From positions 32,238-92,466 of the forward strand of contig WELA01001627.1 in assembly GCA_009602735.1 (NCBI GenBank): DNA of 60,229 bases, in the 5' to 3' direction. The notes beneath the pieces are model-generated. The model was not told where the DNA came from. It did not search any database and saw only the letters and a list, made by a program, of their open reading frames with translations. Below, one piece after another: positions 856-60,166 of the stretch. The position numbers and the translations under genes were made by a program. Source of the stretch: Mesotaenium endlicherianum (Eukaryota). Within the stretch, counting starts at the first letter, position 1. Each line of letters opens with the position of its first letter.

Positions 856-1576
856 TGAAATAAATTGACTTATTAAATAGGCAATTAACAATTAATAAAG
901 ATCTTTATATCAGCAAGTAATCTTTATGGTATTTTTCGTTAATTGGTTAAACGGCAAAGGACAACACACTAGCAGTGAATAATACTCGTAAGTCAAATGC
1001 GAGTAAACTAGCATCAATAATGCAAATCAGTAAACTCATACATAAGCAAGGTTAGAAGACAGTGCGTATCAATGGCTTCTCGCCTTGGATTCAGATCTCT
1101 CTCAGTAAGCTGTACAAGAGAGTTGGCCTCGTTTCCGAATGCCGAACTCGAGAGCAATGCCTAGCATATGTACATGGAATGAGTTTACTGTTCAACGGTC
1201 AGTGCGATGGCACCGCCTACCCGGGAGTTAACCACGTTGGTAGGACCTCGGTTAACCAAATCCACCGCCATCTCCCATCATCCCGAATCGCCATCCATCA
1301 TAGGGATGTCATCTGGCCATTCATCTAGCATACCACATTTAGATGCATATCGAGGCAGTGCGCTGCTACCGAGTACGGAAGTCAGCTGGCTGTCAAAGAA
1401 TGTGTCAGCAAGCTGACTTAAGGTGACCTCAGCCTGCTACTTCGGGCCGAGTCATTAAACTGATATTAACTATAAAGTCCAGCAGACTGATCATTAACTA
1501 GAGTTCAGCAGGCTAAACTTATTTAATTATATTATTTAAATAAATATTATGTCAACCAATATACTGATTCATTACA
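856..1576 (-). mobile_element. 5' LTR of Gypsy element A, inserted into the 3' LTR of element B
   Basis: TG...CA termini and an adjacent PBS. Homology to the element B LTR begins immediately after 1576. Confidence 0.75.
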
Positions 1577-1685
1577 AGTATCTATTCACACTTGACTCCA
1601 CACAATACTACTCCAAATATATTCAAAAGCATTAAAATATATGCAAATTAATATATTATAACTCAAATCACTACGTCATCCCCCC
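1577..1685 (-). mobile_element. Remnant of element B 3' LTR (1577-1675) plus polypurine tract
   Basis: 1577-1674 aligns by eye with 9636-9732 and is preceded on the - strand by GGGGGGATGA. Confidence 0.8.
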
Positions 1686-2185
1686 GACAAAAAATGCGAC
1701 GTCTCGGCACGTCAAGTCAGGTCTTAAACATGTAAGGTAGACTAGTCAAGGTCGTGGGTGGTGTGACCTTATTGGCAAGCCTACTCCTTGATGATAAAGA
1801 ATACTGTACAAGTTGGCCCAGAATCTGCAATGAATTCAAAAATTCATAGCGTTCACATAACTGCTCCAAATCTAAAAATTTTAGTGCTAGACAAACCGCG
1901 TTGGAGAACTCTACCAAATCAACAAATTTAAGAGCATTCTGACTTCTGGAGTGTCGTTGAGAGCTGAGAGAGTAGGCCCTCCAAATCTGTGCAGAGACTT
2001 CTGATAATCATAAGTCCTTCTATACTTCTTCAAATTTTGCAAAGATAGTCTCTAAATGGACACCGTAAGGGCTTCTACCATAGTTTTGATTTTCAGAGCA
2101 TTCCAACTTCAGGGGAGGGCACAATGTCAGTAGGCATATTCTGCCCTTATAATGCCAGCAACCTGACCTCCTTCTACTCAGAGCA

Positions 2186-5115
2186 TCATATCTCGCTCAC
2201 CAGTGCTCCATATTGAGCAAACTTGGATTCTAACTTTGAGAAATACGACTGCGTCTGAAGGTGCTTCAACGCCTCGTGGTCCGTAGTGACCAGCACCTTG
2301 CGTCCTTCAACGTAGCAGTGCCAAACCTTCAAGGCATGTACAATCGCCAATGCCTTTTGCTCCGTGGTTGTATAATTTTGCTCGGCTGGATTTAGCTTTC
2401 TTGACTCGTAGGCAATGGGCTTCAGTCCCTTGCCTTGGTCTTGAAGCAGGATTGCTCCTTTTGCAGAGTAAGATGCATCGGTGATGACGTGGAAGGGCCA
2501 ATCTGGGTTTGGACTTGGGAGTGTGAGTACCGAGGATGTCGTCAATCTTTTGCTTCAGCTGTTGGAATGCTTCCTCCTCTTTCTTGGTCCAAACATATGG
2601 CTTGTCTTTTTTCAGTAGATCCGTGAGAGGGGCTGCTATGTGCGAGAAGCTCTGGATGAATCTCTTGTACCAATTGGCAAATTCCAAGAATGATTAGAGT
2701 TCTTTCTTGGTCGTGGGGGTTGGCCATTCCTCCACCACCGTGGTCTTCTTAGGGTCCATCTTGATGCCATCAGCAGTCACGTGGAGACCTAAGAACTCCA
2801 ATTCTTGTTTGGCAAACTCGCACTTTAACTCCTTTGCAAATAGCTTGTTTTGCTTCAATACTTCGAGGACTTCTTTCAAGTGTCTCGCATGCTCTTCCAG
2901 GGTCTTGCTGTAGATAAGGATGTCATCGATGAATACCACTACAAATCTGTCCAACATGGGCTGAAATATGGTGTTCATCATAGTCATGAAAGTTGCTGGC
3001 GCGTTGGTGAGTCCAAAGGGCAAGACCATGAACTCAAAATGTCCATATCTTGTCCTGAACGCCGTCTTCTCTATGTCAGGTTCAGCGATGCGAATCTGGT
3101 GGTAGCCGCTTCTCAAGTCCACCTTCGTGAAGTACTTGGCTCCAACCAACCGGTCCACGAGCTCATCCATGCGCGGCAGCAGGTGTCAATTCTTGATGGT
3201 GATCTTGTTGGGGGCGTGATAGTCCACACACATCCTCAAGGTACCATCCTTCTTCTTGACAAATAGCACCGGGGCTTCAAATGGCGACTTGCTAGGTCGA
3301 ATGAAGCCATGCTCCAGTAGCTCCTTAATTTGCTTCTTGACTTTGTCTAGCTCCGTGTATGACATCTTGAACATAGGCCGAGNCTTGAACATAGGCCAAG
3401 AGATGGGCTTGCTTCCGGGCTCCAACTCTATGTTGTGGTCTACGAATCTCTTGGGGGGTAGGCCCTTGGGCAATTCCAAGGAGAATACTTCTTTGTAGTC
3501 CTCTACGACTTCTTGTATCTCCTTGGGAAGGGGGCTGCCTTCTTGACTCTCAATGTCTTTCTTGATGTCTTTTGGCATGATCAAGGCCAAAAGAAGCTGG
3601 TGTCCATTCCTCACAAGTCTCTTGAGTTGGAGGGCGGACAATAATATCTCGTGTGCCGGCTTCTTAATGTCTTGGGTCTAGATATTCTAGATTGCGCACA
3701 AGATACAGATTCTTGAAGTGATGTCATTCTTGATCTTGATAGTACCGTCCTTCCAATCAACTTGGGGATTGTGCTTGGTCAACCAAGGCGTCCCTAGGAT
3801 AACGTCGTACTTGTCCAATTGCATGGGGGAGAACACTACTCTGTCCTTGAAGGACTTGATAGAGAGTGCCAAGAGGTACGTTTTCTTGGAAGGGGTAGTA
3901 TAGGAGAATCCGTCAGGCATCATAATCTCCTCGTCGTGGTCAAGAGTTCGCATAGTAATGCCGTGCTTGGTGGAAAAATCTGCAGCGATGAAGTTGCCTT
4001 GAGCTCCGCTATCCACCAAGATGTGGACCTTCTCTCTCAAACGCATTGGGGCTGGAACGTCGTCTTCAACGGGGGTCTCCAACTCACTTGGCTTGTTGTC
4101 CTCTCGTGAAGTGGGTCTAGGGGTGGTAGGCTCCTGGCCTACCGACGGTGTCCGTTTTTTGACAACTTTTTGGGGCATGAGAGTGCACGATGGCCCTTCT
4201 CCTTATAATAAAAGCATAGTCCAGCCGTCATGAGCACTTCTTTTTTAGCCGGGGACAGTCTTGCTTTCACTCCTTGCTGGTTTCTTGCATCATAAGTGGC
4301 ATTGGAGGGTCTTCCACTCTTCCGGGCAACCGCGGGGTCCCTTTTAATAACTCCAATTTCCATGGGTGTGGATCCTCATTTAGACATGGAAGGGGCTGCG
4401 TACACCCGCGTCGCCGGTGCCCGTGAAGATGAAGGCACGGAGTGCTTGAAATCCAAGGTATCCACCTTTTGAGCCACTTCAATAATCTTTGAAAAGTCCG
4501 TCAAGTCGCGTAATTCCACTTCTTTTGCCACCTTGCGCTTGAGGCCAGACACATAACGATCAATTTTCTCCTCGAGCGACATGTTGGGGATCTCAAGAGT
4601 GAGGCCATGAAATCTGGATGTATATTCTTGAACGGTCGTCATTTGCTTGAGATGGCGAAGCTTTTCTCGAGCAATTTTTTCCGCATTGATGGGCATGAAT
4701 TGCTTCTGGAGGGCTTCACGAAAATTCACCCATCTTGCATATGATGGTGGGGGCTCTTGGCCGGGTATGGAATGCGCCACAGCTTGATATACAGTCGCTT
4801 GATAGTTACGCCACCATGATGTTGCTGCTCCTCTGAGCAAGGTAACGGCAAAACGGACGTAGTCCTCCTCGGGTACTTCAAGGAATGTGAGGTACGTCTC
4901 CACTTGGTAGAGCCACAGATTCAATTTGGCTCCTCTCCCAGGATTGAAAGTGTCTGGTTTGCCGGGCTTGATGAGTTTCCTTGCTCTTGTAGGCTCTTGT
5001 GGAGGCGCTTGAGCCGGGGTTGGATTTTGAGCGTTGCTCGCAATAGGGGCAACTGAAAGGGGCAGAGTGCCCTAGTGGAAGCGTAGTGACTCACGAGGAA
5101 AAGAACTAGTTGCAA
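2186..5115 (-). pseudogene. Degenerate Ty3/Gypsy gag-pol (element D): capsid, zinc knuckle, protease, RT, RNase H; no integrase
   Basis: Fragmented ORFs: LLRGAATSWW, CFYYKEKGHRALSC, ILVDSGAQGNF, RT ...FIDDIL, RNase H VITDASY...IAYESRKL. Several stops and frameshifts. Confidence 0.9.
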
Positions 5116-47769: not shown

Positions 47770-50161
47770 ATGTCTCAACCATGCACTTCGTCTGGAGCAA
47801 CGCTTGCTGGAATGAGGACGTCCACCGGAGCTTTAAGCGCTCGTCTTCCCCCTAGGGCAGTTGCTGCAAGGTCTGGTCCAGAGTGGGGCCATGTGGCCAT
47901 CGTTGCGGAAGCCAAGTCCAAGAACTCATATCCGAAGGTGAAGTGCATTTATTGCCCTAGGGAGTTTACTGGTGGAGCCACGCGGATTCGTGGCCATTTC
48001 ACGGGAGGCTGTAAGGATGTTAGTCAGTGTGAGGAGGTTCCTGACAATGTTGTAGATCTCATGATTAGCCGTAGCAACGGTAGTGCTAGTTCTCTGTTGG
48101 GAACGCGACGTAGGAAGAGTGCCATGCAAGCTGCACGAAAGCGCGTGCATGAATGGGGTTTTGACGCTAGTGGCTCACCATGTGCAAGTGCTGGAGGGTC
48201 CCCCTCAGGCAGGGAGTCGAGTCAGACCTCTATAAGTGAAATGTTCCAGAAGATGAATGCTGATGTTGTCCATGAGACTGTCGCTCGCTTCTTCTATGGT
48301 ACTGGTTCATCATTCAATGTTGCTCGTAGTGAGTTCTTTAGGGACATGTTGGTTGCTGTCAGTAAGTACACCCAAGAAACGGGTGTTGTGTATGTCCCGA
48401 TGAAGGATAAGCCTCTCGGAAGTACCTTACTAGATAAAGAGGTGCTGAAGATAGAGGCTTGGGAGAATAAACAAAAGAAGGGACTCCCGCAGACAGGTTG
48501 TAGCATTGTAGCAGATGGGTGGACCGATCCATGCGGGCACCCTCTTCTTAACGTGCTTATGGTTGTGGGAGGCACTGAGATGTTCATGGATGCTATCAAC
48601 ACTGAGGGTGAAAGGAAAACGGGTGACTACATCGGTAACCACCTGCTTGCAGCCGTGGAGAAGATAGGGGCCGAAAATGTCGTACAGCTTTGCACAGACT
48701 CTGCAGCTAACATTTTAGCTGGTTGTAATGTGGTTCGCGAGAAGCACCCGCACATATATTGGACGCCTTGTGCTGCTCACATTTTGGACCTGCTGTTGAA
48801 AGACATAGGAAAGATAAAAGAGCTCGAGGGCATAATTGATAGCTTCAAGCACTTGGTCCAATTTGTTGCAAACCACCACATGCCTCACGCTCTTTACCGT
48901 GAGCATGGGGCAAGGCTTGGAAATAAATTGGAGTTGTTGAAGCCAGGGCCCACGAGGTTTGCTAGTAACTTCCTTTGCTTGCAAAGACTCATCGTTGTGA
49001 GGGATACCTTACAAGCTATGGTGTCTGAAAGAAGATGGTTTGAGTGGGCGGCAAAGAATGGTTGTGTAGGTGAGGCTACGGAGATTAGAGACCTAGTTCG
49101 CGACGATGAACTTTGGGAGCGAGTGAAGGTATGGATAGCTGTGTGTGAGCCGATCGTAGTTCTCCTTCGACTAGTCGACTCTCCACAACCTTCTCTCGGG
49201 AAGATCTGGGCTCGCATGAGTGCCATTAAAGAGCATGTGCTTGAGGTTGAAGGACTCAAACCGACACAAAGAACCCAAGTTAAGAAGGACGTGAAGGCTC
49301 GCTGGGACCAACTTCACAGCCCCCTACATTCTGCGGGTAAAAGTCTATTTTGATGTTGCTCACCTTTCTTGCTCGGCGGCTGCTGTTCTCTTGCATGCTT
49401 GTTATTGTGAGTTGATCATTGTTATTGTTATTGTGCTTGTTATTGTTATTGCTCTCTTTTTTGTGATGTGCATTGCGTTCTCATATACTGAGTGTGCTTC
49501 TTGACTTTGTTTGGCTACAGGCTACTATCTGGACCCCGAGTTCCAAGACCATGAGTCTTGGGCAGTTGAGAAGTGTCTACTAACCGATTGGTCCAACGTG
49601 CGGAATACCCTTGTCGGAGGGAGTGTGCTTGATCGAGCGTTGGTGGATCGAGAGTTGGCACTCTACCGGCAGAGCGGTGACATTTTTGGCGATGATGTTT
49701 GCAAGGCTAATAAGACTATGATGCCTGCTCACAAGTGGTGGGAAACATACGGAAGTCATTGTCCTAACCTTCAGCTTCTTGCTATGAGAATATTGTCACA
49801 ACCTGGTTCAGCAGCTGCATGTGAGAGAAATTGGTCTGAGTACGGGTTTGTTCATAGTCCGATTCGCAATAGGCTGCTCCCTACTAGAGCAAAGAAGTTG
49901 GTGTACGTGCATTCTATGTTGAGACTTCAGGAGAAGAGCTTGGACTTCCTTGGACCAAGTGTTGGCGCCACTCCATGGGTTGAAGAAGCGGAGTTCTTGG
50001 AGACACCTGAAGAGGAGGGTCTCAATCTTGCCATGCATGCCTCGTTGAGTGAGGAACAGGAGATAGAGGTAGAGGATGAGGAGGTGGAGGAAGAGGAGTT
50101 GGAGGAGCGACCTAGTGTTTTAGCTCCAGGAAGAAGGAGGCCTAGAGAGATCGGTTACTAG
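47770..50161 (+). CDS. hAT transposase (BED finger, catalytic core, dimerisation domain), two coding exons
   Basis: CIYC...RGH, ADGW, TDSAAN, CAAH, ACERNWS. Intron 49337-49520 restores HSAGYYLDP. No stops seen. Confidence 0.95.
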
Positions 50162-50237
50162 ATGTGTCTGTCAGCTAACATATATGTAGTAGAGGTAGCA
50201 TGTATTCTCACTCACTTTTTTTGGCTAAGTCACACTG

Positions 50238-51112
50238 CACTCTCTATTAAATTTGGCAATTATAAGTACTTCTTAGATCTTGTACACGCTTGTTAAGAGT
50301 TTGCATCTTCTTTACACTTCTTCATTGAAGCTTATTATACCCGATCAAAATGCAATGATATTGCTAAGCCTTCTTATTTTACTAATAAATAAGATAGGAA
50401 GTACAAAAACAATGCTCTGCCTAGCGGCTGTCTCAGTGTTCGACTTTTGGTCGATAAGTCAAATTTCACTCACTCTTAAAAGTAGCATATATAGGTACTT
50501 CTTAGTTCTTATACATGCTTGTTTAGAGTTTGAATCGTCTTTGTACTTCTTCATTTAAGCTTATTGTACTCCATTAAGAAGCAATGATACTTCTAAGCCT
50601 CCTTATTGAATTAATAAAATAATTACAAAGTACAAAAATATGCTCTGCTAAGCAGCCCTCTTAGTGTAAGACTTTTTGTGAATAAGTCAATCACTCTTAA
50701 ACGTAGCATTTATAGGTACTTGTTGGTGGTTATACATGCTTCTTAAGAGTTTGAATCTTCTTCACACTTGTTCATTGAAGCTTATTATACTCCATTAAGA
50801 AGCAATGATACTACTAAGCCTTCTTATTGAACTCATAAAATAGTTAGAAAGTACAGAAAACATGCTCTGCTAAGCGGCCCTCCCATGGTTAGACGTTTTG
50901 TCGAGAAATCAAATTTCAGTCACTCTTAAATATGGCATATATAAGAACTTCTTATTTCTTACACATGCTTGTTAAGAGTTTGAATCATGTATACACCTCT
51001 TCCTTCAAGCTTATTCTACTTGATAAAGTAGTAATGATACTCCTGACTGTTCTTGTTCAACTAATAAATCAATCAGGAAGTACAAAAAACAGGTCTGCTA
51101 AGCGGCCCTCCC
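50238..51112. repeat. AT-rich tandem repeat, about 4 diverged copies of ~225 bp, in the hAT 3' region
   Basis: Recurrent CACTCT...AAGCTTATT...AGTACAAAAA...CTCTGC units starting near 50238, 50471, 50692 and 50921. Confidence 0.85.
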
Positions 51113-53731: not shown

Positions 53732-55516
53732 ATGTCTCTGAAAGGGGGAGAGTCCTCGTCAAATTCACAGGACACTGATGAGCGTGGCAGCGGTGACAAC
53801 TTTAAGAAGGTGCTTGCTTTTCTCCGCATATCTTGCACTTGCTTCCTCGGTGTAGTGCTTACGTACATGCATGGGAGGCAAATAGCCAAGAAGGTTTGGC
53901 TCAACTTGTTCATGCCTTCTGACATGCAGGGACTTTGGACACCTGAGGAGGATGCCATATTGAGTACTTGTGTACAGCGCTTCAAGGAAGGAAATTGGTC
54001 CACCATAGCTCTGAGATCAGGCCTCACCAGGTGCACTCACTCGACCTACGTGCTTCATTGATTGAAGGCACGTGTGATGGTTCTTTGCTTGCGATACTAG
54101 CATGCAATCGATGCAGGCATTAAGCCTCTGTGTTCGCAAGCTCACTTGGTGCTACTGATGGGGTCAATCTAATAAAGCAGGAGCGGGAAGAGTTGTCGAC
54201 TTCGATGGGTGAAGCATCTAAGCCCGGCTGTGAAGAATGGGCCTCTCACAGAGAAGGAGCAAAGACGGGTGATTGAGCTGCAGTTAGTACACGGCAACAA
54301 ATGGGCTCTGATGGCGTCTTTGCTGCCCGGTCGGTCTGACAACACAATCAAGAACTTCTGGAATTCCCATCGGAAGCGTGCCTTGAGGCGGGCACAAGCG
54401 CAGCAGCACCAGCACCTGTTGCCTGCACCTCGTGGAGCAGCCGCATGTTCCAGAGGAAGACTGCCGGCTGTTTCACGTGATGCCAAGGAGGACATGGTGC
54501 AGCCTCCTGTTGGTGACCACGACCACTCCATGCCTGCTCCTGCATGTGTTCCCATGAGCGAGGACGACCTGGGCTTGCCTTTCGTGTCCTTCTCATCAAC
54601 ATCGTGTGATGAGGAGTTGTCATCAGGCTTCCTGCCAGCAGCGCCTGAAGCGTCGCACGACTCCGACTGCAGCATTGGCATTGGCCATGGGGGGGCGCAT
54701 CAGCTGGCATTTCCCTTGGGCTTTGCATCTCTTGCCAAGTGCCACGCCACCACATCTGCAACATCGCATGCTGACCACTATTCACCCTTTGAGCACGACG
54801 AGAAGAGTCCAACCATGAGAATATCTGGCGAAAATGAGTTGGAAGAAGAGATGGCAGAGCGCAGGAGACTCCGCCACCTGGCAGAAGCTCGGAAAGTGTG
54901 GGAGTTAATAGGAGCAAGCCCAACAGGAATGCGGGAGGCCCTGAGAGAGTGTATGCCGGCTGCCTTGAAGACATCCGCCGTCTCCGCATGTTGCGCGGAG
55001 GCCACTGTGGGGTCCTCTGGGGATGCCCACCTGCTGCTGCCGCCTGGCCTCCATGCGCTTGGAGCCTCGGGAGCCCATCCAGGGCAAGCACAAGAAGGTG
55101 AAGGAGACGACGAGAGACAGGACGAGGCTGGCGAGTACGACTGGCTGGCGCTGCAGGCCGACCCCACATGTCCCGCGGCACCCTGCGACTCCGATCCCCA
55201 CCACACTGACCATGTGTTGGCCCCTGCTGAAGAAAGTCCCGCCAAAAGCGTCATAGTGAGAACAGGAGAGAGTGGGACAGCTGTAGCAAAGCGGGCCAGG
55301 CAGCGGCTGCACACCCCCTCCATGCCCATGTCAGTGGACGTCCCGCGGCTCCCGTTCATGTTCCCAGAAGCTGGATGCCCAACGCCTGCAGACGTGCTGT
55401 TTGCACGCTCCCAGCAGTCGCCCAGCCTTGCGGCTCTGCTGGCTAGCCCTCGCTATGACTGGGCTTGGGGTCCAGGTCGCAACCTCTTCTCGCCTCCTCC
55501 TTTAGGCATGCACTAA
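53732..55516 (+). CDS. R2R3-MYB transcription factor (GAMYB/DUO1-like subgroup), 3 exons
   Basis: Exons 53732-53809, 53930-54030 and 54181-55516 give KKGLWTPEED...NWS...RSGKSCRLRW...GNKWA...LPGRSDNTIKNFWN. Confidence 0.92.
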
Positions 55517-56282
55517 CGGCCCGTCTTATTTCTCGATCTTCCAGAGCCTTTGCACCTCAGTGGGCAACTGGATGTTTATTCGACCAGCTTTGACGATAAT
55601 GTGAAGAATGGAAAAGTGACTATTCTATATTTTTTATGAGCACTCGTCTCCAATAATGTGGGACACTTGTACCTCTTCGCCCACTATTAGTGACTAGAGT
55701 CCGTGCAGTAAGCTTGTTGGAACCCCCGCACAAAATGTGCCAGGCTTAGATCTCCTAAGAGGCGCTTGGTGTGACAGGGAGCCAGCCCAGTTGTGTGGAT
55801 CCTTTGATGCACAACATGGTATACTTCATGCCTGCTGAAAATAAGCTGCGTGACTTTGACATGCTACTCAGCAGCATTGCTTACAGAGCACCTCAAGATT
55901 GTGTGCTAGCCTGAGGTGGTTTTCCGGCAATTTCTTTATTGAACTTGAAAACATGAGCTTGAAGCTGAAAACGTCTGAAGCATAATAATTCCGAACAACT
56001 TGCGTCCCACCTGACTTTTCTAGAATGCATGCAACAACCACACCATATAGTACAAGGCATATAGTCGAAATTTGTGCAAATCGTAATGGCCTAAGAAAGA
56101 GTCATGGCTGTCACAACAAAGCGCCCGTTCTTGGTCTCATCCATTACTGGAACGTCAAGCATCACCCTCCCATAACCAGAAAAGCTGGCACCGGCAAACC
56201 TTTCAGCACCTACTGCCCAAAGTGTCCACCACCAAAATTTGTAAGATTATCTTTCTCTTGAGGACACTTTCAAAAGCTGCTT

Positions 56283-59200
56283 CTAGAAAAGCATAATGTG
56301 TAGGCTGTTTAAATTTATCAACAATCGAGCTCGTTGTAGCACCGAGACGGACAACTGCTCCCTCCTGGGTCTGTTGCACTGAAAGCAAGGAGCCCTGCCA
56401 CCACGACACTAGAGCCCAGCAAGAAGTGTTAGCACGTCATCATTGAGCACCTAAAGAAGGCAAGTCGTGGCTCATAAGTTACAAAGTGAGTCTGCCGGAG
56501 CATTACCCGGAGGACGAGCGCTTTGGTGGCCGGCGGAAGACTCTCACACATCCTCCTCCAAACCTCCTCCTTGTTGCAATCATCAGAAGAATGGCCCTGT
56601 GCGATTTCAAAGCCACGACCTGGCCCCTGTGCGGAGTCCAGAAGTTTACCTTCTTCCTTTTCTTCTTCTCCTTCTCCTCCTGCCTCTACTACAACGCCTC
56701 CAGCTGAGGTGAGGGGGGTGATCACTCTTCTCTCCACGGACACCACAGCTGTTGCGCCACATTGTTTAATGGCTTCCAGAAAAGAACTGAGGGCGAGGGC
56801 GTCTTCCACGCCCTCCACCAGCACAAGGGATGTGCTCGTAGCCCCAGCAACAGCGGAGGGGCCTTGAGGGCCACGGCATGTGATGATGTTGTCCACCACT
56901 TGCAGGGGAGCAGCAGCATGGGGTTGAGTAGGGATGAAGCTGCCAGCCTGCGCTAGGAGCTGAGTGAGGCCCACGCGCTGCAACGTGCGGCCATCCTCCC
57001 CATCATGATGCACAAGCCTCACACTGCCTGAAGCTGTCAGGCAAGGCCTCACATATCCTGCTTCTGCTGCCATCTCTGCAGCAAGAACACCCACAACACG
57101 CAGAGGCACACACGAGCGCACGCGCACACACACACCCACACACACATTGGTTGCTACTGAAGCAGCTGCCTACTTGAAAGTAAGGGTACTCACAATGTGC
57201 AAAGGGAATCCCACACACGGTCCAGCGGAAGAGGAGATGGTGGAGATGGGGGGGGAGGGGGGGGGAGAGTCTGGGGGAGAAAGCAACCTGCAAGAGCACA
57301 CAGCATGTCGAGGTGCGCCAGAGCATCCACCAGCTCCAGCAGCGCTGCCACGTGCCTGCTCTCCAGCTGCCCATCCTCATCTCGGCAGGAGAAGAGGCAA
57401 ATGCTGGCGGTTGCTGAGGCTGAGGCCAAGGCTGGAGCTCCACAGTGATAACAGGTCCCAGGAGGAGGCGGCCTCATGTTGCCCACCTGACCCGCACGCA
57501 GTGTTGGCCGGTAAGACAAGCCGACATGCATGCAGGCACACTTGTAAGGCATCAGCGGTGCAGCTTGGTGCTCCTCCCACTCGCGTCTCCAGGCGCTTAC
57601 CCTCCTCAATAGCGGCACCAGCTTGATGGCGGTTGCAAGCGCGTCAATGTCAAGGCTGGGCAAGCCACGCCCCTCCCGCGCCACCACCTGGCCGACACCT
57701 CGCGCGGCTTCGATGAAGGCCGCCAAGTCTTGCACGTCCCTGCCAACACCCCGCCCCCCACACAACTATTACTTGCCTGCCTGCCTGCCAAATGTGTGCA
57801 ACCAAGGGGGGAAAAGGGGGAGGCACTGACAAATGGTCAGCAGCACAGCACTGGAGGCGCTGCACCACTCGCTCCACGTCGCCCACGCGCTCCAAGCGGC
57901 TCTGCAGTGACTCCCTGACCGCGTGCTCCCGCAGCAGCACCTGCCACGCACAGTGGCTCTCTCTCTCCCTCGTAACCCGGCACGATATGCCAACGTCCAC
58001 GCGACATGTGTAGAGTTGGTTGGCAGGAGAGAAAGGGCACCTCGACGGAGTCAAGGCGCGCAAGGATGGCAGGCAGGTCCTGCAGCGGCCGCAGCAGCGT
58101 GCGCCGTAAGAGGCGTGCCCCCATGGGAGAGCGAGTGTAATCCGAGAGCAGTCCGCCCCAGGGCCAGCCGTCCCCCCCCACCTGATGCATGCAGCACCAG
58201 CACCAGCACCAGCACCAGCACCAGCACCAGCACCAGCACCAGCACCACCGCTGCGGTCACCTTTATTTTTACACGGCGGCGGCAAAACATGTCCCCACCC
58301 ACCCACCCACGGACACACACACGAACTTTACGAACATCCGTACATACTTGGAGAAGCGTGCGGGTGGTGGCGTCCATGGCCAAGGGTGCCTCCTGGTCAT
58401 CACTCCTCCACAAGTGATGCTGCGGCGTGTGGGCCCCCTCCTGCCCCTGGCACTTGCGCGTGATGGTGAAGCTGCTGCCCAAATAGCTGCAGGCCGCCGC
58501 AGCAGTGGCAGCGGCACCGTCAAGTACGGCCGCTTCCTGAGGGACCAGAGTGCATGAAAGGGAGTGGGAGAGGGTGCGCACCTGACAAGACCACCCACAG
58601 CCATGTCTTCCAGCTCTCCCAGGGCCCCAGAGGCTGCTGCGGGATGGATGGAGATGGACACGGAGTGTCGCTGCCCTGCCGCTGCCACGTCACTACTGTG
58701 TATCCACCTGCCCTGCAGCGGCAAGCACCACCATTGACACTCTGTTCATGCTCCACCACAGCAGCAAGCCAGCTAGCCTGGAGAGATGAAGCAGGTCAGG
58801 GCCACTCACCACACCAAGCGGACGGCTCCGGAAATAGTCCAGGGCTTTGGCCACATAGGTGGGACCAGGTGGCGCCTTCAGAGGCATGCTGCTGCCACCA
58901 CTGGGCTCCATGGGTACGTCCACGAGGCGGCCGCCTATACGCCGCTGTCCCGCCCAAGCAGCCACTATTCAGACATGACTATATGGACGGGCTCCATAGC
59001 GCTTCGCGCCCGGGGGTGGGGGGGCGGGGTGTGTAGCAGAGGTACCTGGGAGGCAAAGAGCACGAGACCGGGCGGCGGTGCCATCGCCAGAAGGGCATGG
59101 GCCAATGCTGCGTGTCCCCCCCCCCCNCCTGGTGCCTTTGCATGCACTTCCCACCCACCCTGCCTGCCTCCCCTCCTCCCACCGTCCCTCCCTCCCTCCC

Positions 59201-60166
59201 TCCTCCCGGCAGCGAGAAAGGGCCATAATGACCACAGCGACAACGATCGTCCCCGTTCAATCACCTGTGGAGACATCAACACACGCAAGGCCCCAGGTGT
59301 CAGCCTCTCCCGCGGGCGGAAGAAGCGCAGCCAGGCGGGGGGCGTGCGGCCCCAGGGGAAGGGTGAAGCGCTTGTCCAGCAGCGCCCCCGCAGAGAACAC
59401 GGCGCTCATGCCCCTCCCCTCCTCCTCCTCGGGCATGACGGCCAACCCCCGCCCGCGCGCCAGTAGAGTGACGATGCAGCTGTCAAGCATGCTCGGCGCC
59501 AGCCGCGCCACAGCCACCCCCTCTCGCGGCCCCTGGAGGGCAGTGCCGAGCTCTCTAGCCAGCTGGCGGGCATCGTCATTGTACGCCTCCACAAGGCCCT
59601 TGTCCCTCTGCACACAGACACACATGCACAACCCGTTGCTCTGCGGCCGTTAGTAATGTGGTACGTGCGTGTGCAAGCAAAGTGGAGGAGAGAGGGGGGA
59701 GGGGGGCAGGGAGAGACCGTCCTGACCTGGAGCAGGAGCAGGCAGTGGGACCACTCGCGCTTAAGCTCCTCGTAGCGCCGCAGCACCCGCCTCCCCACAG
59801 GCGCCCTGCTTCTGTCATCCAGCCCCAACTCGCCCACCTCATCCTCTCCTTCTTCTTCCTCTCCTTCTTCTTCTTCTTCTTCCTTGTCGTCGTCAAGGAC
59901 CGCATCTTCTGACGCAGGCTGGAAGCGGGAAAGAACAGGAGCAGCTGCTGCATGGCCAGGAGGCTGCAGCGCCTCGTGCGGCCGGGGGGAGGCGCTGTTG
60001 TGGGCCTTAAAGTGCAGCTGCTCCAGCTCGTGGGGCCGCAGCCCAGCGTCGTGGCACAGGTAGGGCAGGACAGCAGCCAGCATGTTGACGTCGTCCATGG
60101 CGCGGTGCGTCTGCTCCATGGGCTTCAGCTGGTAGTGCACGTACAGCCCCTCCAGCTTCAGCTTCC
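56283..60166 (-). CDS. Multi-exon MutS-family gene with N-terminal DEDDh exonuclease; 5' end outside the window
   Basis: HRAMDDV (ExoIII); YEELK...LLLLQ...EAYNDDA (domain I); [10 protein letters not shown] (II); [18 protein letters not shown]...ARLDSVE (III); [30 protein letters not shown]; terminal [12 protein letters not shown]. Confidence 0.85.
58191..58247. repeat. (GCACCA)n hexamer microsatellite in a MutS intron
   Basis: About 9 direct copies. Confidence 0.9.

What the first reader, a model, noticed from the sequence alone, without database searches (positions are those of the whole stretch)
56283..60166. DEDDh exonuclease fused to a MutS protein with a degenerate ATPase
Seen: one exon (59727-60166) encodes both an exonuclease end (KLEGLYVHY...HRAMDDV, like DnaQ/plant DPD1) and the start of MutS domain I, so the fusion does not depend on a splice model. 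The mismatch-binding Phe of GDFYE is replaced (GLVEAY). No Walker A (GPNxxGKS) is visible before [17 protein letters not shown], and Walker B reads SLVLVEG. The exons I traced still keep frame. Known: nuclease-MutS fusions I know of use GIY-YIG (plant MSH1), HNH or Smr at the C-terminus. Inference: an ATPase-dead MutS scaffold guiding a 3'-5' exonuclease, possibly organellar and possibly related to the origin of DPD1. I cannot tell whether it has been reported.
Basis: partly seen in the sequence, partly recalled or inferred. Interest (0 to 1): 0.7.

Follow-up and report, generated by a model that had tools for sequence, protein, structure and literature searches.

The report
Organelle exonuclease on a dead MutS
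This expressed gene of the alga Mesotaenium, a close relative of land plants, is a version of the already described DPD1-MutS1 fusion that keeps its DNA-trimming exonuclease residues but has lost MutS's ATP-using, DNA-clamping and mismatch-reading parts, so it likely works as an organelle exonuclease on a motor-dead scaffold; club-moss and fern copies show milder decay of the same ATPase.

Summary
RNA reads show a spliced minus-strand transcript that joins the exonuclease end to MutS domain I. The domain V exon is contiguous, so no P-loop exon is hidden. The protein is P0001, labelled Mesotaenium endlicherianum. The fusion itself is published (DPD1-MutS1, PMC12292046), and the best hits are those land-plant fusions. 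What I did not find in print is the decay. All five DEDDh residues are kept, but the mismatch Phe, about 85 residues of clamp/lever, the adenine pocket, Walker A Gly/Asn/Lys, signature loop, Walker B, H-loop and dimerisation HTH are lost. Identity to moss is 46% in the exonuclease against 28% in the ATPase. Selaginella and ferns also lack the Walker B Glu, while three bryophytes keep it, against the paper's statement that plant copies retain these motifs. Streptophyte copies end in a KH-like DnaA_N/STICHEL-type domain that the paper's text does not mention; this copy keeps it. Best reading: a likely active organellar 3'-5' exonuclease on a pseudo-ATPase scaffold. Activity, targeting, sister-species orthologues and any intact paralogue are untested. 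New variant of a known kind.

The parts
59727..60166 (-). Exon: C-terminal part of the DPD1-type DEDDh exonuclease, acidic linker, start of MutS domain I
   Evidence: joint 59607/59727 in 71 raw reads over 5 runs
60087..60107 (-). Exo III motif with catalytic His and Asp (H376, D381 of P0001)
59265..59607 (-). Exon: rest of MutS domain I and start of connector (II); FXE Phe replaced by Leu, Glu kept (59581-59598)
59046..59127 (-). Exon in connector; its first ~20 bases are hidden in the assembly's single N at 59127
   Evidence: loose ends at 59264 and contig X2 record 5
58348..58944 (-). Three connector exons (58810-58944, 58582-58712, 58348-58486); a minor acceptor at 58964 shifts frame and stops early
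   Evidence: joints; translation
57601..58181 (-). Three core-domain (III) exons (58041-58181, 57831-57940, 57601-57739), the best-kept MutS part
   Evidence: PF05192 E 2.8e-21 on P0001; 37% to moss; joints
57288..57486 (-). Exon with a short Pro/Ala/Cys linker in place of the clamp/lever domain IV, then the last core helix
   Evidence: 121 residues between core anchors against 199-265 in 28 of 31 rows; joints
56507..57075 (-). Single exon holding the whole pseudo-ATPase: Walker A remnant 56984-57010, Walker B remnant 56810-56830, H-loop remnant 56726-56743; no adenine-pocket RHP, no signature loop, no HTH; ends with the first helix of the C-terminal domain
   Evidence: contig X1 record 1 covers 56506-57075 without gap or extra letters
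56203..56394 (-). Last coding exon: most of a KH-like DnaA_N/STICHEL-type (PF23007-like) domain, stop at 56203-56205
   Evidence: PF23007 E 0.0013, below its cut-off; 40% to Riccia, E 4e-7; own HMM E 3e-16; model pLDDT 86
55910..56202 (-). 3' untranslated region (read depth reaches the 55910-56064 bin)
   Evidence: table 2

Best explanation
The gene encodes a DPD1-MutS1 fusion whose MutS half has lost its ATP-binding, signature, dimerisation, clamp and mismatch-reading motifs, so it likely works as an organellar 3'-5' DNA exonuclease carried on a catalytically dead MutS scaffold and is likely positioned by its C-terminal KH-like domain rather than by mismatch sensing. Shown: spliced transcript, open frame, five DEDDh residues (three read from the P0001 model outside the window), loss of the motifs, retention of core and C-terminal domain. 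Follows from established MutS enzymology: without Walker A Lys, Walker B Asp-Glu, the trans signature and the HTH there is no composite ATPase site and no ATP-driven sliding clamp, and without the FXE Phe there is no mismatch intercalation. Inferred, untested: import into plastid and/or mitochondrion; Mg-dependent trimming of exposed 3' ends (organelle DNA turnover or processing of recombination and replication intermediates), as for seed-plant DPD1; and docking of the KH-like tail on a nucleoid or replisome partner, as DnaA domain I and the Pol III tau C-terminal domain do in bacteria (their roles recalled).
For: RNA: 9 of 11 modelled introns listed as joints, the other 2 supported by loose ends and contig pieces; domain V exon contiguous. 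Walker A Lys is present in 30 of 31 aligned MutS rows and missing only here; Walker B DE is present in 25 of 31. Decay is selective. Identity to Physcomitrium is exonuclease 46%, C-terminal domain 42%, core 37%, against domain I 32% and ATPase 28%. Riccia scores 52/55/51/72/68, and the more distant Cymbomonas still scores 58% in the ATPase. The MutS half has a 2.37 substitutions/site terminal branch, while the exonuclease branch (0.99) is like Physcomitrium's (0.83) and Spirogloea's (1.21). The model keeps exonuclease, domain I, core and a truncated ATPase sheet folded and matches MutS structures, best E 2e-24. An exonuclease plus the same C-terminal domain with no MutS between exists (P0085: own HMM E 4.6e-8; PF23007 E 0.0054). 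In plant MSH1 both the FXE Phe and ATP are needed for mismatch-directed cutting (10.64898/2026.06.11.731605, section 14).
Against: No activity, localisation or partner is shown. The N-terminal 215 residues and Exo I/II come from a gene model outside the window, and no targeting predictor was available. No other Zygnematophyceae fusion was found, so dN/dS and conservation of the dead state could not be measured; it may be a one-lineage relic. Trees are weak: 59% for grouping with land-plant fusions, 21-50% on the exonuclease backbone. Fold matches of the tail are weak and the fold is common (best Foldseek E 0.016; best Z 7.1, DnaA domain I Z 4.5-5.0). The whole-protein model is low confidence (mean pLDDT 53, pTM 0.36). 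11 of 67 raw junction reads at the 59046 donor use an acceptor that truncates the protein after the connector start, and Spirogloea's DPD1 model is stand-alone; both suggest the MutS half may be dispensable.
Confidence: 0.55

Rival explanations
1. The MutS half is a vestige in transit to loss: only the DPD1 exonuclease (perhaps with the tail) matters, and the MutS part survives as an inert spacer because frame-breaking changes would remove the tail or destabilise the mRNA or protein.
For: Very long MutS branch; large in-frame deletions; minor truncating splice form (11 of 67 reads); stand-alone DPD1 models in Spirogloea and seed plants; P0085 joins exonuclease and tail without MutS.
Against: The core keeps 37% identity to moss and is predicted helical at pLDDT about 75-85; domains I and II keep their fold; the order of all remnants is preserved.
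Confidence: 0.25
2. It is a non-catalytic partner subunit: it pairs with an active organellar MutS-family ATPase (plant MSH1 or an unseen MutS1 paralogue) and supplies the 3'-5' exonuclease to mismatch repair or recombination surveillance.
For: MutS proteins act as dimers, and DPD1 is proposed to act after MSH1 incision (10.64898/2026.06.11.731605, discussion passage). An intact paralogue could not be excluded because no genome is held.
Against: The HTH and trans signature that build the MutS dimer are deleted. No protein labelled Mesotaenium was among the 66 hits to the Riccia MutS half, though only lengths 1025-3262 were searched and the search missed known divergent orthologues.
Confidence: 0.12
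3. The MutS half still binds nucleotide or distorted DNA in a non-canonical way and steers the exonuclease to mismatches or D-loops, as the first reader's 'guiding scaffold' implies.
For: The FXE Glu is kept, the P-loop keeps its length with Arg for Lys, and Thr follows it.
Against: Adenine pocket, P-loop Gly and Asn, Walker B, signature, H-loop, HTH and clamp are all lost; the remnant loop is acidic.
Confidence: 0.05
4. It is a transcribed pseudogene, or the degeneration is an assembly or gene-model artefact.
For: One assembly gap (N at 59127); P0001's annotated C-terminus and one connector exon differ from the RNA-supported model.
Against: Reads and contigs from 8 runs show no listed base differences or indels against the window, canonical GT-AG joints and an open frame; exonuclease residues are intact.
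Confidence: 0.03

Closest known systems
Plant cyanobacterial-type DPD1-MutS1 fusion (Sloan et al. 2024, PMC12292046); e.g. Physcomitrium P0190, Marchantia P0189, Riccia P0014
   Same: N-terminal extension, DPD1 DEDDh domain with five catalytic residues, MutS domains in order, and the C-terminal PF23007-like domain; top hits of the HMMER search.
   Different: The three bryophyte proteins keep FXE, clamp, Walker A/B, signature, H-loop and HTH; this copy has lost all of them and is about 1234 aa against 1864-2004.
DPD1-MutS1 of Selaginella (P0016, P0164), Adiantum (P0015), Ceratopteris (P0183) and unnamed P0017
   Same: Walker B Glu and Walker A Asn lost in all 5; clamp and signature also deleted in both Selaginella models; FXE altered in Adiantum and Ceratopteris; tail kept.
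   Different: They keep Walker A Gly and Lys and the RHP adenine pocket. The decay is likely independent of Mesotaenium's, because bryophytes and Cymbomonas are intact (accepted species tree, recalled).
Seed-plant DPD1 (Arabidopsis AT5G26940), TREX-like DEDDh exonuclease
   Same: Same exonuclease type; stand-alone DPD1-like proteins fill most of the next ranks, about 40-44% identical over the domain. DPD1 is a dual-targeted Mg-dependent 3'-5' DNase that degrades organelle DNA (PMC11164812, passages).
   Different: Stand-alone, about 300-400 aa; none of the stored stand-alone plant DPD1 proteins matched the C-terminal domain HMM.
Bacterial/cyanobacterial MutS1 (Taq 1EWQ, E. coli 1E3M; Moorea P0191)
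   Same: Domains I, II, III and part of V align by sequence and fold.
   Different: No nuclease fused; active ABC ATPase, clamp and mismatch Phe.
Plant MSH1 (MutS plus C-terminal GIY-YIG)
   Same: Organellar MutS-nuclease fusion of green plants.
   Different: C-terminal endonuclease of separate origin; needs Phe and ATP to cut. Here the nuclease is an N-terminal exonuclease and no GIY-YIG is detected.

Membership tests
Plant DPD1-MutS1 fusion (by descent) | N-terminal DPD1 DEDDh domain with five catalytic residues | tested here: met
   D225, E227, D316, H376, D381 of P0001 align with the orthologues; only H376 and D381 lie inside the window
Plant DPD1-MutS1 fusion (by descent) | Exonuclease and MutS on one transcript and frame | tested here: met
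Plant DPD1-MutS1 fusion (by descent) | MutS half of cyanobacterial MutS1 descent, grouping with land-plant fusions | tested here: inconclusive
   Sister to land-plant fusions at 59%, inside the plant + cyanobacterial group at 86%, long branch (31 rows, 613 columns)
Plant DPD1-MutS1 fusion (by descent) | C-terminal PF23007-like domain shared by land-plant members (feature found here, not in the paper's text) | tested here: met
   own HMM from 7 land-plant rows: E 3e-16; BLAST E 4e-7
Plant DPD1-MutS1 fusion (as described: full MutS1 domain set) | Domains I-V complete, including clamp/lever IV | tested here: not met
   121 residues against 199-265 between anchors; no PF05190 hit
Plant DPD1-MutS1 fusion | Plastid/mitochondrial transit peptide | not testable with these tools
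   N-terminus lies outside the window; P0001 residues 1-216 are low-confidence in the model and 61-215 are Ser/Arg/Ala-rich and poor in acidic residues, which is only suggestive
Active MutS1 mismatch-repair ATPase | FXE mismatch motif | tested here: not met
   Leu-x-Glu
Active MutS1 mismatch-repair ATPase | Walker A Gly/Asn/Lys, Walker B Asp-Glu, trans signature Ser, H-loop His | tested here: not met
   H/G/R, EG, deleted, no His; no hidden exon
Active MutS1 mismatch-repair ATPase | C-terminal HTH dimerisation element | tested here: not met
   gap in the alignments
Seed-plant DPD1 | Stand-alone DEDDh exonuclease | tested here: not met
   fused in the major transcript; a minor splice form would end shortly after domain I
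Seed-plant DPD1 | Mg-dependent 3'-5' DNase acting on organelle DNA | not testable with these tools
   needs an assay
Plant MSH1 | C-terminal GIY-YIG endonuclease | tested here: not met
   no Pfam hit; the C-terminus is KH-like
Nuclear MSH2-7 | Groups with eukaryotic MSH clades | tested here: inconclusive
   Falls away from the three eukaryotic-type rows used as outgroup, but the MSH subfamilies were not all sampled
DnaA domain I / Pol III tau-C / STICHEL domain (tail only) | KH-type alpha-beta fold and profile match | tested here: inconclusive
   PF23007 passes its cut-off in Selaginella (31 bits) but not here (19 bits on a partial domain); Atlas rows for the moss tail at 0.89-0.90 name PF23007, PF12362, PF20964; fold matches weak

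The most novel reading that the evidence does not exclude
Streptophyte DPD1-MutS1 is really an exonuclease plus a replisome- or nucleoid-docking KH domain, like the epsilon and tau-C parts of bacterial Pol III, joined by a MutS body whose motor has been switched off at least twice independently (Mesotaenium; Selaginella and ferns). The Mesotaenium protein is a selected, fully ATPase-dead and clamp-less MutS scaffold, and these pseudo-ATPases are living intermediates on the path to stand-alone seed-plant DPD1.
Probability: 0.3. Interest if true: 0.7.

Novelty: new variant of a known kind. Interest (0 to 1): 0.45.

Why it matters
The ATPase is described as the one domain all MutS subfamilies keep, and plant MutS1 as retaining Walker A and B (PMC12292046). 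This copy, and more mildly the Selaginella and fern copies, contradict that. They suggest that plant DPD1-MutS1 repeatedly stopped being a mismatch-repair motor while keeping the exonuclease and an unremarked C-terminal domain. That gives a graded natural series (intact moss, Glu-less fern, clamp-less Selaginella, motor-dead Mesotaenium, stand-alone seed-plant DPD1) for asking what the untested DPD1-MutS1 does in organelles, and how DPD1, the nuclease that clears organelle DNA from pollen, became free-standing. It also points to the tail as the part to test first.

Tried and rejected
No genome is held for this window, so an intact MutS1 paralogue, the upstream exons and the host's MSH1 could not be searched. 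Three word-based protein searches and one HMMER search of cluster representatives (150 of 5085 hits listed) found no second Zygnematophyceae fusion. One search missed even the land-plant orthologues and one search missed the fern and Selaginella ones, so the blank is weak. No base differences were listed in 8 runs, so there is no polymorphism for a selection test. The exonuclease tree paired Mesotaenium with an unrelated long branch (P0080) and has 21-50% backbone support, so it does not settle the origin of seed-plant DPD1. The Atlas search with P0001 gave only MutS clusters under 0.8. Fold searches of the 62-residue tail gave no match at E 0.001 or Z 8; the model lacks the domain's first helix, which lies in the previous exon. 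A hidden P-loop exon was rejected. A frameshift at the N gap was rejected. P0001's annotated C-terminus was rejected in favour of the RNA joint 56393/56506. GC by codon position was not decisive for selection (GC3 falls from 0.93 in the exonuclease end to 0.54 in the ATPase exon and 0.42 in the conserved last exon). Earlier scan findings: none for this protein. Literature searches without a paper on the decay: MutS1+Zygnematophyceae 0, DPD1+Mesotaenium 0, MutS+Walker A+degenerate+pseudoenzyme 0, MutS1+Selaginella+Walker B 0. DPD1-MutS1 returned only versions of the Sloan paper; Mesotaenium+MutS gave 8 papers, seen as listings only and none on this gene by title. No complex prediction was run.
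Full report
Observation. The minus strand of 56203-60166 carries twelve exons. The first (59727-60166) reads in one frame from the end of a DEDDh exonuclease through an acidic linker into MutS domain I. It is 100% identical to part of P0001, a 1128-aa model whose source label is Mesotaenium endlicherianum ME000048S07950. Pfam finds the exonuclease (222-389, E 8.6e-20) and MutS III (E 2.8e-21) above cut-off, MutS I just under it (E 0.0008) and MutS V only as a trace (E 0.09). The window ends in a CT repeat inside the preceding intron, so Exo I/II and the N-terminal 356 residues are known to me only from P0001.

Expression and gene model. Eight runs were laid, five of raw RNA reads and three of contigs. 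Nine of my eleven introns appear as GT-AG joints. The two others lie beside repeats or the single N at 59127 and are supported by loose ends and contig pieces. In the stranded runs first mates lie on the plus strand, as expected for a minus-strand RNA. Contig X1 record 1 runs 57484-57288, 57075-56506 and 56393-56112 with no extra letters, and the three joints involved have 64, 40 and 64 raw reads. So nothing is spliced in where the clamp or the P-loop should be. Contig X2 record 5 links the exonuclease exon to the connector and shows 444 nt for exons 2+3, in frame across the gap. The RNA model has 260 + 611 stop-free codons (0 of 2000 shuffles stop-free), about 1234 aa if P0001's start is right. 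It differs from P0001 at the C-terminus, where RNA adds the end of exon 11 and a last exon to the stop at 56203. A minor acceptor at 58964 (11 of 67 raw reads at that donor, leaving out 3 reads with an odd joint) shifts frame and stops within ten codons.

Relatives. A HMMER search of 1.84 billion representatives ranks four long proteins first: Riccia P0014, Adiantum P0015, Selaginella P0016 and unnamed P0017. All have exonuclease + MutS I, II, III and V. Stand-alone DPD1-like proteins follow. A search with the Riccia MutS half added Marchantia, Physcomitrium and cyanobacterial MutS1. PMC12292046 (abstract, passages and part 1 of 2 of section 8 read; figures and supplements not available) describes exactly this family: a plastid-derived MutS1 with an N-terminal DPD1 domain in non-seed plants and some green algae, function untested. 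It notes FXE loss in Zygnema and two ferns and states that Walker A, Walker B and the signature are retained. Its text mentions neither Mesotaenium, Selaginella nor a DnaA/STICHEL domain (0 occurrences); its figures or data repository, which I could not see, may include them. In my tree of the MutS half (31 rows, 613 columns) Mesotaenium is sister to land-plant fusions at 59% and inside the plant + cyanobacterial group at 86%, on a 2.37 substitutions/site branch. Orthology therefore rests mainly on the shared three-part architecture.

What is lost. Against 30 other MutS rows, the Mesotaenium protein has Leu for the FXE Phe. It has 121 residues across the clamp/lever region against 199-265 in 28 rows (113 in both Selaginella models), and no RHP adenine pocket. 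HHDGEDGRT stands where relatives have TGPNASGKS, making it the only row of 31 without the Walker A Lys. It has no signature loop, EG for the Walker B DE, no H-loop His and no HTH. The five exonuclease residues are all present. Identity to Physcomitrium is 46% (exonuclease), 42% (tail), 37% (core), 32% (I), 25% (II) and 28% (V). Riccia gives 52, 55, 51, 72, 53 and 68, and Cymbomonas, an outgroup, still gives 58% in V. The normally best-conserved modules have thus decayed most. An AlphaFold model of P0001 (mean pLDDT 53) is confident in the exonuclease, fair in domain I, core and a shortened ATPase sheet, and matches MutS structures best.

Parallel decay. Of nine streptophyte fusion rows, the three bryophytes keep every motif. 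Adiantum, Ceratopteris, P0017 (groups with the ferns at 100%) and both Selaginella models lack the Walker B Glu and Walker A Asn, and Selaginella also lacks clamp and signature. These are predicted proteins that I did not check against RNA, but the Walker changes are point substitutions in well-aligned blocks. With bryophytes and Cymbomonas intact, parsimony on the accepted species tree (recalled) needs at least two independent losses of ATPase function.

The tail. The RNA-supported C-terminus matches the C-termini of land-plant fusions (40% to Riccia, E 4e-7; HMM from seven land-plant rows, E 3e-16 among 266 stored proteins). Pfam calls it PF23007, STICHEL DnaA_N-like, above cut-off in Selaginella and below it elsewhere. 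Atlas look-alikes of the moss tail include PF23007 and Pol III tau C-terminal clusters at 0.89-0.90, leads only. The last exon folds confidently (pLDDT 86) into a KH-type arrangement, with weak matches to Era and uS3 KH domains, DnaA domain I, DciA and tau-C (best Z 7.1, best E 0.016). It is absent from the Cymbomonas and other non-streptophyte fusions. One unnamed protein, P0085, has exonuclease + this domain and no MutS.

Mechanism. Established MutS enzymology (recalled, and for plant MSH1 shown in section 14 of 10.64898/2026.06.11.731605) requires the Phe for mismatch reading and ATP for the clamp cycle, so this protein cannot plausibly do canonical mismatch repair. Seed-plant DPD1 is a dual-targeted Mg-dependent 3'-5' DNase that degrades organelle DNA (PMC11164812, passages). 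The most likely working (0.55) is a DPD1-like exonuclease acting on exposed 3' ends of organelle DNA, carried on a folded but motor-dead MutS body and positioned by the KH-like tail. Targeting, activity and docking are all inferred. Rivals are a vestigial spacer (0.25), a passive partner of an active MutS (0.12), non-canonical residual guidance (0.05) and pseudogene or artefact (0.03).

Verdict. The fusion is already known. The fully ATPase-dead, clamp-less form, the parallel Walker B loss in Selaginella and ferns, and the conserved tail were not found in ten full-text searches of an open-access library, which misses most subscription papers. It is an orthologue of DPD1-MutS1 by architecture but fails the tests for an active MutS1. 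New variant of a known kind; interest 0.45. Open: sister-species orthologues, dN/dS, an intact paralogue, the 5' exons and all biochemistry.

Noticed in passing
P0085 (stored protein, unnamed source; cluster of 6): 527-aa protein with a DEDDh exonuclease and the same C-terminal PF23007-like domain but no MutS between them.
   Followed up: partly
P0015, P0183, P0017, P0016, P0164: Fern and Selaginella DPD1-MutS1 models lack the Walker B Glu and Walker A Asn; Selaginella also lacks clamp and signature loop, against the published statement that these motifs are retained.
   Followed up: partly
P0148 (Rhodelphis marinus): DEDDh-MutS fusion with intact ATPase motifs but no FXE, in a relative of red algae, whose MutS1 is described as unfused; it groups apart from the green fusions in the MutS tree.
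   Followed up: partly
P0091, P0227, P0222, P0243: Further DEDDh-MutS1 fusions with intact motifs and no tail, from sources without organism names; they form one clade at 86%.
   Followed up: partly
P0177 (Cymbomonas), residues 1253-1280: C-terminal extension gives a weak PC4 ssDNA-binding-domain hit (E 0.019) instead of the streptophyte tail.
   Followed up: no
P0021 (Spirogloea muscicola): A 319-aa stand-alone DPD1 model in another Zygnematophycean; may be a real fission or a split gene model.
   Followed up: no
window 58964 and 59046: Minor splice acceptor (11 of 67 reads) would give a short exonuclease + domain I protein, resembling stand-alone DPD1.
   Followed up: partly
window 59127: A single N hides an assembly gap of at least 20 exon bases beside a poly-G run; the public model P0001 skips part of this exon.
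   Followed up: yes
window about 53926-55516 (+): Convergent neighbouring gene with two Myb repeats split by an intron, R2R3-MYB-like.
   Followed up: partly
window 49505-50161 (+): hAT transposase C-terminal dimerisation domain (E 2.8e-14), followed by what look by eye like several degenerate repeats of about 220 nt at about 50200-51100.
   Followed up: partly
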